DNA of 64,000 nt from Escherichia coli (GTDB taxonomy: Bacteria > Pseudomonadota > Gammaproteobacteria > Enterobacterales > Enterobacteriaceae), in assembly GCF_050920415.1 (NCBI RefSeq), contig NZ_CP169309.1; one strand, given 5' to 3'. The first letter of the stretch is position 1. Every line of letters starts with the position of its first letter. Made by a program: the position numbers. Positions 41,001 through 44,000 of this stretch are shown here, in pieces.

Positions 41001-44000
41001 TAAGGAGGAACAATGTCATACTCGCTTTTTGACAAAGACGAGCACTGGCATAAGCCAGAGCAGGCGTTTCTCACCGATGACCACCGGACCATTCTGCGCT
41101 TCGCCGTAGAGGCGCTAATGTCCGGTAAAGGAGCGGTGCTGGTGACGCTGGTGGAGATACGCGGCGGCGCGGCGCGCCCGCTCGGAGCACAGATGGTGGT
41201 GCGCGAAGATGGTCGTTACTGCGGTTTTGTCTCTGGCGGCTGCGTGGAGGCCGCTGCCGCTTTTGAAGCGCTGGAGGTGATGGGCTCAGGCTGCGATCGC
41301 GAAATTCGCTATGGCGAAGGTTCGCCGTGGTTTGACATCGTTCTGCCCTGCGGCGGTGGGATCACGCTGACGCTCCATAAACTACGCTCGACACAGCCTC
41401 TGCTCGCCGTGCTGAACCGCCTGGAACAGAGAAAACCGGCGGGTCTGCGCTACGATCCGCAAGCTCAATCGCTGGTGTGCCTGCCCACGCAAACCCGAAC
41501 GGGCTGGAATCTCAATGGCTTTGAGATGGGGTTCAGGCCATGCGTCAGGCTGATGATTTACGGACGTTCTCTTGAGGCGCAGGCAACCGCGAGTCTTGCA
41601 GCAGCCACAGGCTATGACAGCCATATCTTCGATATTTTTCCGGCCTCAGCCAGCGCTCAGATCGATACCGATACGGCGGTCATTTTGCTGTGCCATGATC
41701 TCAACCGGGAGCTGCCAGTGTTGCAGGCCGCGCGAGAGGCAAAACCCTTTTATCTCGGCGCATTGGGCAGCTATCGAACCCACACGTTACGTCTGCAAAA
41801 GCTCCACGAGCTAGGATGGTCCAGGGAGGAGACAGCGCAAATCCGGGCACCCATCGGGATATTCCCCAAAGCCCGGGATGCGCATACTCTGGCACTCTCC
41901 GTGCTGGCAGAAGTCGCTTCTGTACGTCTCCATCAGGAGGAGGATTCATGCCTGCCCCCGTCGTCGTGATCCTTGCGGCCGGGCGTGGAGAGCGCTTTCT
42001 CGCCTCCGGGGGAAATACCATAAATTAAGAGAAAAATCTGCAGTAGCCGTTTTAGAAAATCACCTAAATCGTTTAAAAGAGCGCCCAACCCATAGTGGGC
42101 GCTCATCGCCTTGTGTAACTTATTCAGCAACGCGCGCCCTCGCCGGACTAAAGCGCACCGGCCTTCTGGCGTGCGGTAACAAAGGTCAGTACGCCAGCGC
42201 ATAGGAGCAGCACGCTACTCATGGCAAACGTACTCTGCCAGCCGAGGTGGTCAAACACGATGCCTCCTGCCGTCGATCCAAGGGCGATTGAAAGCTGAAT
42301 CACCGCGACCATTAGCCCGCCTCCGGCTTCCGCGTTGTCGGGCAACGTACGCGCAATCCATGTCCACCACCCGGTTGGCGCGGCGGTTGCCAGCATGCCC
42401 CAGAGGCCTAACAGCAGCGAGACCATCCAGACGTGATGCCCGGTAAGCATCAGGCTGATGGCAATGACGGCCATCAGTCCAGGTATAGCCATCAGCGTGG
42501 GGTAGAATTTCCTGTTGAGGAATGTCGAAACAACCAGCGTGCCGATAAAACCGGCTACTCCGATAATCAGCAAAATCAACGACAAGCCTGAGGAATCAAC
42601 CAGCGTCACGGTCTCCAGGAACGGGCGCACATAGGTGAATAGCGCAAACTGCCCCATGAAAAACAGGCCACAAGCTATCATGCCGACCACAACCATGCGG
42701 CGGCTAAATAAGCGGAATACCGTGCCAAATGACGTGTGGCTTTTATTCGCATCCATACTGGGCAGGCTGATGCACTGCCAGATAAAGGCGACAACCGCCA
42801 TGGGCACCAGGCACAAGAAAGCGCCTCGCCATCCGACCGTAGCCCCCAGATAGCTTCCCAGCGGTGCGGCCACGACCGTCGCCAGCGCATTACCGGCATT
42901 GAAAATCGCCAGCGCACGCGTGACCTGTTGCTGCGGCACCAGACGAATCGCCGTTGCCGCAGACATCGACCAGAATCCGCCAATCGCCACACCAATCATC
43001 GCGCGACCGATCATATACATCAGATAACTGGAAGCCAGCGCAATAATAAGCCCCGATACGGCCATCAGAACCGTCATTCCCAGCAGCAGGAATTTACGAT
43101 TCATCTTTCCTGCTAGCGTTGAAAGCGTCAGGCTGGTCAGAACCGCCAGTGCGCCGGAGATAGCAATCCCCTGCCCAGCCAACCCCTCCGTCACGCCTAA
43201 ATCGCGGGCAATCGGCGTGAGCAGGCTGACGGGCATAAATTCAGAAGCAATCAGCACAAACACGCACAGGGTCATGGCAAAAATACCGCCCCAGTATGCG
43301 CGCTGATGATGAGGTGATGGTGTTTGGTTTAGCGTCGACATAGTGAAATTTCACGAAGGCCAGGATAAAAGCCACCAGCCTATGGCCGGTGGCTTTGCAT
43401 CAATTCAGGAGAGGTTTTATTTCAGTTTGGTCTGGAAAAATTGTTCGAACTTCGCGAAAGGTATTTTTCCGGCCACGTTATCGTACAGGTCCACGTGATT
43501 TGCCCCAGGTACCACCACCAGCTCTTTATCTTTACTGCCAACCGCCTTGTAAGCATCTTCAGCAAAATAGCGTGAATGTGCTTTCTCACCGGTCACAATC
43601 AGCGTCGGAATGGTGATTTCACTGGCGTAACTCAACAGCGGCATATTCATAAATGACAGCGGCATCGTTGCCGTCCACGCCCCGGTAGAGTTAACGGAAC
43701 GTTCGTGGAAGCCGCGCGGCATGCGATAGTAGTCAAAGAACTCTTTCAGTACCGAATGAGGATTTGCCGGCAGCGTTTCTGGCAGAATGCGCTCGCCCGC
43801 ACTGACCTTGCCGTTGCTATCGACATTAATATCATGACCACCATGAGCGAACGTTCCGCTCTGCGCATCCTTCCAGCGCTGTTCATTCAGATATTGCAGA
43901 ACAGCACGACGGTCGGCGGTAGAATAACGGTCTTCGCCATCCCCCACACCATGGCCCATCGCCCGGCTCATGTCATACATCACGCTGGTAGCAACCGCTT

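What the first reader, a model, noticed from the sequence alone, without database searches (positions are those of the whole stretch)
41948..42028. Remnant of a MocA/MobA-like nucleotidyltransferase gene fused to the 3' end of paoD
An ATG overlapping the last codons of paoD opens a 26-codon frame, MPAPVVVILAAGRGERFLASGG, matching the N-terminal nucleotide-binding motif of molybdopterin nucleotidyltransferases, then stops. Established: PaoABC uses the molybdopterin cytosine dinucleotide cofactor made by MocA. Inference: the ancestral pao operon carried its own cytidylyltransferase gene, lost here by a deletion whose junction lies near 42030.
Basis: partly seen in the sequence, partly recalled or inferred. 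Interest (0 to 1): 0.5.

Follow-up and report, generated by a model that had tools for sequence, protein, structure and literature searches.

The report
Leftover stub of a lost pao-operon gene
Just after paoD, this E. coli keeps the first 27 codons of a nucleotidyltransferase gene that is intact at the same spot in related bacteria, which makes it an ordinary, unannotated gene remnant.

Summary
An ATG at 41948, 22 nt inside the end of paoD and preceded by AGGAGGAGGA, opens a 26-codon frame ending at 42028.

The stub is not a chance motif. Pao loci of other Enterobacteriaceae match the window at 90-91% DNA identity from 36981 up to 42024-42027, then the match stops. In those loci the same ATG opens an intact gene of about 184 aa (Pfam PF12804, nearest NCBIfam model MocA). 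34 of 80 paoD loci carry such a gene directly after paoD.

No complete E. coli genome keeps more than the stub. About 3,590 pao-bearing genomes carry one of three truncated forms:
- This window's form (406 genomes) has also lost one C (CCC to CC at 42018-42019). That loss creates the TAA stop.
- 504 genomes keep CCC.
- 2,683 K-12-type genomes carry a second, 6.1 kb deletion between two CATAA copies. It fuses stub codons 1-25 in frame to the C-terminal part of a LysR gene, which is the old 136-aa "yagP".

The stub is best read as a dead relic. Per the literature, E. coli MocA (in 5,169 of 5,426 genomes) supplies the cofactor. Cytidylyl specificity is untested, and in-place deletion cannot be told apart from the edge of an acquired segment. 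Interest is low to moderate.

The parts
41948..42027 (+). Remnant (codons 1-27, with one base missing) of a pao-linked MobA-like nucleotidyltransferase gene. It keeps the N-terminal glycine-rich motif LAAGRGERF.
   Evidence: DNA homology to the full-length genes of L002 and L086 ends at 42027 and 42024. Peptide matches are, the family HMM match. The CCC allele is 25/27 identical to E. oligotrophicus P0004.
41948..42028 (+). The 26-codon open frame as read by the first stage. Its TAA stop (42026-42028) is made of TA from the remnant and A from the unrelated sequence that follows.
41935..41944 (+). Shine-Dalgarno-like AGGAGGAGGA inside the 3' end of paoD, ahead of the remnant ATG. It is invariant in E. 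coli, L002 and E. oligotrophicus.
42018..42019 (+). Site of a 1-nt deletion (CC here, CCC in K-12, other E. coli and relatives) that shifts the frame from ...NTHKL to ...NTIN*.
   Evidence: The CC allele is in 406 genomes. The CCC allele with the same downstream sequence is in 504 genomes.
42028..42147 (.). Unrelated, AT-rich spacer to the right of the breakpoint. It contains a hairpin (stems 42079-42087 and 42096-42104) that looks like the terminator of the convergent MFS gene.
   Evidence: No homology to any full-length relative beyond 42027. The minus-strand fold gives -21.4 kcal/mol, z = -3.2. The simple terminator scan did not call it.
41013..41969 (+). paoD (XdhC-family molybdenum cofactor insertion chaperone). 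Its last 22 nt overlap the remnant.
37166..41003 (+). paoA (37166-37855), paoB (37852-38808) and paoC (38805-41003).
42148..43275 (-). MFS transporter gene, convergent on the remnant. It is the first gene of the 5.6 kb stretch that now follows the breakpoint.
   Evidence: RefSeq annotation of the identical strain
48158..48162 (+). CATAA inside the second LysR gene (47597-48496). It is the right-hand copy of the microhomology at which K-12-type E. coli deleted window 42024-48157, fusing the remnant in frame to the LysR C-terminal part (yagP).
   Evidence: The junction is in 2,683 genomes.
36919..36987 (+). 69-nt fragment (97% identity) of an MFS gene that is intact upstream of paoA in E. oligotrophicus. 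It marks the left edge of the shared pao block and has a 975-bp internal deletion at CACAACT.

Best explanation
Window 41948-42027 is a dead 5' stub of a fifth pao-operon gene, and nothing annotates it. In related Enterobacteriaceae the operon reads paoA-paoB-paoC-paoD followed by a gene of about 184 aa for a MobA/MocA-superfamily nucleotidyltransferase, whose ATG lies 22 nt inside paoD.

In the E. coli lineage everything after codon 27 was removed by an illegitimate recombination or deletion event. The break lies at 42027|42028 and joins the stub to unrelated DNA that ends the convergent MFS gene. The stub keeps its ribosome-binding site, its ATG and the glycine-rich nucleotide-binding motif. 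It lacks about 85% of the fold, so it cannot be an enzyme.

It has since decayed in different ways in different E. coli lines. This window's form lost one C, which creates the early stop. K-12-type strains had a second, 6.1 kb deletion between two CATAA copies that fused the stub to the C-terminal part of a LysR gene (yagP).

Shown: homology, position, breakpoint, polymorphism, and absence of any full-length copy in 5,426 E. coli genomes. Inferred: the intact gene makes the cytosine dinucleotide cofactor for PaoABC, and its loss was tolerated because E. coli MocA, encoded elsewhere, does that job.
For: Homology and position:
- Colinear DNA identity of 91.4% (L002) and 89.6-89.8% (E. oligotrophicus) runs from 36981 to 42027 and 42024, then stops abruptly.
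- Intact ORFs of 174-197 aa start at the homologous ATG in 26 Enterobacterales loci. 34 of 80 paoD loci have a family member directly downstream on the same strand, and 11 more have one within 3 kb on the other strand.
- E. oligotrophicus gene calls read paoA 229 aa, paoB 318, paoC 732, paoD 319, then a PF12804 protein of 184 aa with a 22-nt overlap.
- The full-length relative hits PF12804 at 6.4e-24. The best NCBIfam model is MocA TIGR03310 at 4.5e-22 to 7.5e-24.

Fixed truncation and decay in E. coli:
- No E. coli complete genome covers more than the first 217 nt of L002:6800-7600 (0 of 5,426).
- The three truncated forms add up to nearly all pao-bearing genomes: 406 + 504 + 2,683 against about 3,600.
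- Signs of decay include the CC frameshift, R16C in K-12 at a nearly invariant Arg, and E15K and A20T in strain 88-3493.

Cofactor supply:
- mocA is present in 5,169 of 5,426 genomes.
- The literature says PaoABC uses MCD made by MocA and that PaoD takes MCD from MocA (PMC3909100).
- XdhC-type chaperone genes paired with MocA homologues are known, for example pucA-pucB (PMC2997495).
Against: The enzymatic activity of the intact relatives is untested. They score below the MocA equivalog cutoff (79-85 bits against 186) and are only 19% identical to E. coli MocA. They also lack about 22 residues that MocA and the rhizobial versions have.

The stub retains a strong ribosome-binding site and start codon, so translation of a short peptide, or of the K-12 chimera, is not excluded.

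A 12-nt colinear match to L002 at 42049-42060 could mean the breakpoint is more complex than a single clean junction.
Confidence: 0.93

Rival explanations
1. The stub is not the scar of a deletion within an ancestral E. coli operon. It is the right-hand edge of a 5.1 kb pao segment (36919-42027) that entered or was exchanged into E. coli by horizontal transfer. The recombination endpoints fell inside the flanking genes, so E. coli never held the full-length gene.
For: The pao block is 89.6-91.4% identical to the Enterobacter-type and L002 loci, while the neighbouring thrW-proA stretch is only 78.7% identical. Both ends of the shared block lie inside genes that are intact in E. oligotrophicus: an MFS gene on the left and the NTP-transferase on the right. 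The block has 0.59-0.62 G+C against 0.43-0.48 to its left. About 1,830 of 5,426 E. coli genomes have no match to the paoD 3' end. No other Escherichia species representative appeared among the paoD loci.
Against: In both E. coli and E. oligotrophicus the pao locus lies a few kb from thrW-proA, which fits vertical descent of the neighbourhood. The left-hand MFS fragment carries an internal deletion at a 7-nt microhomology, so in-place deletions did occur here. The two scenarios also predict the same present-day sequence.
Confidence: 0.35
2. The short frame is a working small gene. It would encode a 26-aa peptide, or in K-12 the 136-aa YagP chimera, translated by coupling to paoD and retained because it does something, for example interacting with PaoD or regulating the operon.
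For: The AGGAGGAGGA and ATG are intact and invariant. The stub persists in all of roughly 3,590 pao-bearing genomes.
Against: The ribosome-binding site and the first 7 codons lie inside paoD, so they are conserved for paoD's sake. The product differs between lineages: 26 aa here, a longer read-through frame in 504 genomes, and a LysR chimera in 2,683. Substitutions hit motif residues (R16C, E15K). RefSeq annotates nothing here.
Confidence: 0.04
3. The match is a chance resemblance. Glycine/alanine-rich frames like LAAGRGERF arise easily in G+C-rich DNA, and the frame is just read-through noise after paoD.
For: On its own the 26-aa peptide gives only a weak library hit (IspD, E = 0.083).
Against: DNA identity of about 90% with full-length genes at the orthologous position ends exactly at the stub's end. 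25 of 27 residues match E. oligotrophicus P0004. The family HMM scores 29-39 bits.
Confidence: 0.01
4. The 25 N-terminal codons are the true start of a LysR-type protein YagP, as the old 136-aa K-12 gene model implied.
For: In K-12 the ATG opens an uninterrupted 136-codon frame that runs into LysR-like sequence.
Against: YagP residues 25-105 match the C-terminal part of the intact 299-aa LysR gene of this window at 98.8% (47597-48496), and residues 1-24 match the NTP-transferase stub. The K-12 DNA equals window 36712-42023 joined to 48158-48672, sharing the 5 nt CATAA. RefSeq marks the K-12 LysR part as a fragment missing its N-terminus.
Confidence: 0.01

Closest known systems
E. coli MocA (YgfJ), CTP:molybdopterin cytidylyltransferase
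   Same: Same superfamily (PF12804). MocA is the best-scoring NCBIfam model for the intact relatives (TIGR03310). It shares the N-terminal xAAGxxxR[MF] motif and C-terminal features (GHP, DIDT). It also has the expected functional link, since PaoABC needs MCD and PaoD is reported to receive it from MocA (PMC3909100).
   Different: The intact pao-linked proteins are only 19% identical to MocA (E = 0.032 pairwise). They score 79-85 bits against a cutoff of 186 and lack about 22 residues present in MocA. The window holds only 27 of about 184 codons.
Bacillus subtilis pucA-pucB and similar xdhC-plus-mocA-homologue gene pairs (Arthrobacter pAO1, Oligotropha)
   Same: A chaperone gene of the XdhC family directly followed by, or co-transcribed with, a MocA-homologue gene in clusters for xanthine-oxidase-family enzymes (PMC2997495). 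The intact enterobacterial paoD-plus-transferase pair has this arrangement.
   Different: In E. coli the second partner is reduced to a stub, and the operon has been described as paoABCD with paoD last (PMC3909100, PMC2997495). PucB (TIGR03202) is a weaker match than MocA.
E. coli K-12 yagP (b0282), annotated as a LysR-family fragment
   Same: It starts at the same ATG as the stub, and its first 24-25 codons are the stub.
   Different: yagP is a later product. A 6.1 kb deletion between CATAA copies joined the stub to the C-terminal part of the LysR gene that is intact in this window at 47597-48496. This window has the undeleted arrangement.

Membership tests
MobA-like NTP transferase domain (Pfam PF12804) | N-terminal glycine-rich nucleotide-binding motif (LAxGxxxR[MF]) | tested here: met
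   The window has ILAAGRGERF. I8, A10, A11 and G12 are invariant and R16 nearly invariant in alignment A1, which includes MocA. The family HMM aligns positions 1-30.
MobA-like NTP transferase domain (Pfam PF12804) | Complete alpha/beta domain of about 160 residues | tested here: not met
   Only 27 of about 184 codons are present, and homology ends at 42027. The window feature is therefore a fragment of a family member, not a member gene.
MobA-like NTP transferase domain (Pfam PF12804) | Intact orthologues at the same position match the Pfam model | tested here: met
   The L017 protein hits PF12804 at i-E = 6.4e-24, residues 6-145. The closest homologues in the protein database (the best 120 of 492 were listed) all carry PF12804.
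MocA/YgfJ equivalog (NCBIfam TIGR03310), molybdenum cofactor cytidylyltransferase | Whole-protein score at or above the curated cutoff (186.45 bits) | tested here: not met
   Intact relatives score 78.9 and 84.7 bits. Identity to E. coli MocA is 19%.
MocA/YgfJ equivalog (NCBIfam TIGR03310), molybdenum cofactor cytidylyltransferase | CTP-specific transfer of CMP to Mo-molybdopterin | not testable with these tools
   Needs biochemistry on an intact relative. A few database sources name these proteins molybdenum cofactor cytidylyltransferase, by prediction only.
xdhC-type chaperone plus MocA-homologue gene pair | Transferase gene directly downstream of, and co-oriented with, the XdhC-family gene | tested here: met
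   34 of 80 paoD loci. E. oligotrophicus has the same 22-nt overlap as the window.
Pseudogene or gene remnant | Truncated relative to intact orthologues, with lineage-specific disabling changes and no intact copy in the species | tested here: met
   0 of 5,426 E. coli genomes extend beyond the stub. Disabling changes are the CC frameshift in 406 genomes, the K-12 fusion in 2,683 genomes, and R16C.
LysR-family regulator (old YagP model) | N-terminal winged helix-turn-helix followed by a substrate-binding domain | tested here: not met
   The stub matches NTP-transferases, not LysR. K-12 YagP residues 25-105 equal the C-terminal part of the window's intact LysR gene.

The most novel reading that the evidence does not exclude
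The stub is still translated from its intact ribosome-binding site by coupling to paoD. Its products would be a 26-aa glycine-rich peptide here and a 136-aa NTP-transferase/LysR chimera (YagP) in K-12, and they might have acquired a role such as binding PaoD or modulating Moco hand-over. A separate reading is that the intact pao-linked proteins form an uncharacterised, shortened clade of cofactor nucleotidyltransferases dedicated to PaoABC.
Probability: 0.05. Interest if true: 0.45.

Novelty: new member of a known kind. Interest (0 to 1): 0.27.

Why it matters
The pao operon of the model organism is always described as paoABCD with paoD last. The stub shows that this is a trimmed version of a five-gene unit, and that the dependence of E. 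coli PaoABC on the distant mocA gene is probably secondary.

It also explains the odd K-12 open frame yagP as a chimera of two gene fragments made by a microhomology deletion.

It points to an untested enzyme: the pao-linked transferase of other Enterobacteriaceae, which is only 19% identical to MocA. This could be tried as a dedicated MCD synthase.

None of this changes how the system is thought to work. It is an annotation and evolutionary footnote.

Tried and rejected
- NCBIfam scan of the 26-aa peptide alone gave only IspD at E = 0.083. The peptide is too short to classify by itself.
- The promoter/terminator scan of 41800-42300 found nothing. The hairpin at 42079-42104 folds well on the minus strand, but its T-tract is too short for the scan.
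- Rfam search of 41500-42600 gave only a sub-threshold Esr41 match, 18.9 bits against 102. This was rejected as chance.
- I tested whether homology continues past 42027 in decayed form. The family HMM extends weakly to position 40 in the CCC allele. A 12-nt stretch at 42049-42060 matches L002 at 11/12 near the colinear position, seen in 4 of 2,000 shuffles. The other five relatives tested reach no more than 8/12 at any near-colinear position, and 7% of shuffles reach 11/12 somewhere in the gene. This is left as unexplained, not counted as homology.
- I considered that the K-12 and window junctions might be one event because they lie 4 nt apart. One search shows that K-12 equals the window arrangement minus 42024-48157, so it is a second deletion.
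- PMC2755913 (Neumann 2009, MocA) is not held in the library. Statements about MocA are taken from PMC3909100 and PMC2997495.
- The 13 papers that contain 'yagP' as a whole word were seen only as titles and abstract openings, none of which concerns its origin. They were not opened.

Full report
**What is in the sequence**

The window is E. coli. Positions 41700-42400 are 100% identical to strain MFDS1022581. RefSeq annotates paoA, paoB, paoC and paoD at window 37166-41969, followed by a convergent MFS transporter gene, an alpha/beta hydrolase, a LysR regulator and further genes.

An ATG at 41948 lies 22 nt inside paoD, preceded by AGGAGGAGGA at 41935-41944. It opens a frame that translates as MPAPVVVILAAGRGERFLASGGNTIN and stops at 42026-42028. 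Nothing is annotated there in any E. coli record examined.

**Is it more than chance?**

Alone, the 26-aa peptide is too short for the libraries.

I therefore fetched 80 loci that encode PaoD relatives, drawn from one genome per species, and searched them with the peptide.
- In 26 Enterobacterales loci the peptide matches directly after paoD, on the same strand. These include Pluralibacter, Leclercia, Enterobacter, Franconibacter, Siccibacter, Silvania, Cedecea, Dryocola, Citrobacter, Atlantibacter, Kosakonia and Pseudocitrobacter. Identity is 52-89% and E reaches 2.6e-9.
- In every one of these loci the frame continues as an intact ORF of 174-197 aa counted from the start of the hit.
- With a family HMM, 34 of 80 loci have such a gene directly downstream and co-oriented, including 8 alpha-proteobacterial loci. 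Another 11 have one within 3 kb on the other strand.

The DNA evidence is stronger.
- The window is colinear with locus L002 at 91.4% identity from 36981 to 42027.
- It is colinear with Enterobacter oligotrophicus at 89.6-89.8% from 36981 to 42024.
- In both cases the match then stops abruptly.
- In E. oligotrophicus the called genes are paoA 229 aa, paoB 318, paoC 732 and paoD 319, then a 184-aa PF12804 protein whose start overlaps paoD by the same 22 nt.
- That protein begins MPAPVVLILAAGRGERFLSSGGCTHKL, which is 25/27 identical to the E. coli stub in its unshifted form.

**What the intact gene is**

A full-length relative hits Pfam PF12804, the MobA-like NTP transferase domain, at 6.4e-24. 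Its best NCBIfam model is TIGR03310, MocA/YgfJ molybdenum cofactor cytidylyltransferase. The scores are 79 and 85 bits, well below the curated cutoff of 186.

It is only 19% identical to E. coli MocA. It also lacks about 22 residues that MocA and the rhizobial pao-linked proteins possess. Most public sources call these proteins 'nucleotidyltransferase family protein', and a few call them cytidylyltransferase by prediction.

Superfamily membership is therefore shown. Cytidylyl specificity is an inference from the operon context and from the known pairing of XdhC-type chaperone genes with MocA homologues, for example pucA-pucB (PMC2997495).

**The breakpoint and later decay**

Homology to the relatives ends after ...CATAAATTA, at window 42027. 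Base 42028 and everything to its right is unrelated AT-rich spacer. The spacer contains a hairpin that looks like the terminator of the convergent MFS gene.

The window strain has CC at 42018-42019 where K-12, other E. coli and all relatives have CCC. This single-base loss changes ...NTHKL to ...NTIN and creates the stop. Short queries that can only match across the site gave these counts:

| Form | Genomes |
|---|---|
| CC allele (this window's form) | 406 |
| CCC allele with the same downstream sequence | 504 |
| K-12-type junction | 2,683 |

Together these account for essentially all of the roughly 3,600 E. coli genomes that have the paoD 3' end. No complete E. coli genome out of 5,426 matches more than the first 217 nt of the L002 query, which is the stretch up to the breakpoint.

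Amino-acid changes within the stub hit motif residues: R16C in K-12, and E15K and A20T in strain 88-3493.

**The K-12 arrangement**

K-12 DNA equals window 36712-42023 joined to window 48158-48672, with the 5 nt CATAA shared at the join. This is a 6.1 kb deletion between two CATAA copies. One copy is at the end of the stub. The other is inside a second LysR gene that is intact in this window at 47597-48496.

The join is in frame. The ATG of the stub therefore opens a 136-codon frame made of stub codons 1-25 plus the C-terminal part of the LysR protein. This is the old gene model yagP. RefSeq now marks only the LysR part, as a fragment missing its N-terminus.

The 4-nt distance between the two junctions looked suspicious at first, but the alignment shows two successive events.

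**How it most likely works**

It does not work. Twenty-seven codons of a fold of about 184 residues cannot form the enzyme, and the differing fates of the frame in different lineages argue against selection on the product.

The ribosome-binding site and first 7 codons are held constant by paoD. The remaining 58 nt (41970-42027) are simply not yet eroded.

The functional consequence is inferred. PaoABC needs the cytosine dinucleotide cofactor, and according to the literature PaoD receives it from MocA (PMC3909100). mocA is present in 5,169 of 5,426 E. coli genomes, so a pao-linked copy would have been dispensable.

**What remains open**

The pao block is about 90% identical between E. coli and the Enterobacter-type locus, while the neighbouring thrW-proA stretch is 78.7% identical. 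The block is 0.59-0.62 G+C.

Its left edge also lies inside a gene fragment. A 69-nt piece, 97% identical, comes from an MFS gene that is intact upstream of paoA in E. oligotrophicus, and it carries a 975-bp internal deletion at CACAACT.

About 1,830 E. coli genomes lack the paoD end, and no other Escherichia species turned up among the paoD loci. The stub may therefore mark the edge of a horizontally exchanged segment rather than a deletion in a vertically inherited operon. Against that, both species have pao a few kb from thrW-proA. The present data cannot decide. Either way the stub derives from a full-length gene.

**Comparison with what is known, and verdict**

The literature describes the operon as paoABCD with paoD as the last gene (PMC3909100, PMC2997495). 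I found no paper or annotation that mentions the stub.

The kind of thing is familiar: a gene remnant, in a gene pairing that is already known. Interest is low to moderate.

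Noticed in passing
window 36919-36987: Between yagU and paoA lies a 69-nt fragment, 97% identical, of an MFS transporter gene that is intact upstream of paoA in Enterobacter oligotrophicus (L086 3840-5036). E. coli lacks the 975 bp between L086 4046 and 5020, joined at a CACAACT microhomology. The pao block is therefore flanked by gene stubs on both sides.
   Followed up: partly
L082 5249-5659 (E. coli K-12 type); window 42024-48157 deleted: The old 136-aa K-12 gene model yagP is a chimera. Codons 1-25 come from the NTP-transferase stub, and the rest is the C-terminal part of the LysR gene at window 47597-48496. 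The two were joined in frame by a 6.1 kb deletion at CATAA. The junction is present in 2,683 of 5,426 genomes.
   Followed up: yes
window 36981-42027 versus 48618-50028: The pao block is about 90% identical to the E. oligotrophicus locus, while the nearby thrW-proA stretch is only 78.7% identical. The pao block also has 0.59-0.62 G+C. This suggests that pao was exchanged horizontally more recently than the species split.
   Followed up: partly
L030 6958-10578 (Frateuria defendens): A LysR / alpha-beta hydrolase / MFS trio lies directly after the paoD homologue with no NTP-transferase gene between. It is 42%, 41% and 64% identical in protein to the window's LysR (44740-45624), hydrolase and MFS genes, and is inverted as a block relative to E. 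coli. This may be a recurrent functional neighbour of pao.
   Followed up: no
window 42049-42060: GTTTTAGAAAAT matches L002 codons 36-39 of the full-length gene at 11/12, 4 nt off the colinear position. Only 4 of 2,000 shuffles do as well near colinearity. The other five relatives tested reach no more than 8/12 at any near-colinear position. It is either chance or a trace of a more complex breakpoint.
   Followed up: partly
alignment A1, columns 55-76 (relatives L002-L036, P0001-P0009): The enterobacterial pao-linked NTP-transferases lack about 22 residues that E. coli MocA and the rhizobial pao-linked proteins have after the first helix. They appear to form a shortened, uncharacterised subgroup.
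   Followed up: no
E. coli genome collection: About 1,830 of 5,426 complete E. coli genomes have no match to the 3' end of paoD, so the pao operon is not universal in the species. One genome (H60) matches only the first 167 nt of the query, which suggests a truncated paoD.
   Followed up: no
window 45854-45922: RefSeq marks a ykgR small-membrane-protein pseudogene fragment (missing its N-terminus) here. It lies in an AT-rich stretch (0.36-0.38 G+C over 45700-46899) between the two LysR genes.
   Followed up: no
window 48624-48699 (-): This is tRNA-Thr (CGT), thrW. K-12 homology to the window ends at 48672, inside this tRNA gene, where K-12 carries the CP4-6 prophage (intF and neighbouring genes). 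This window's strain has no prophage at that site.
   Followed up: partly
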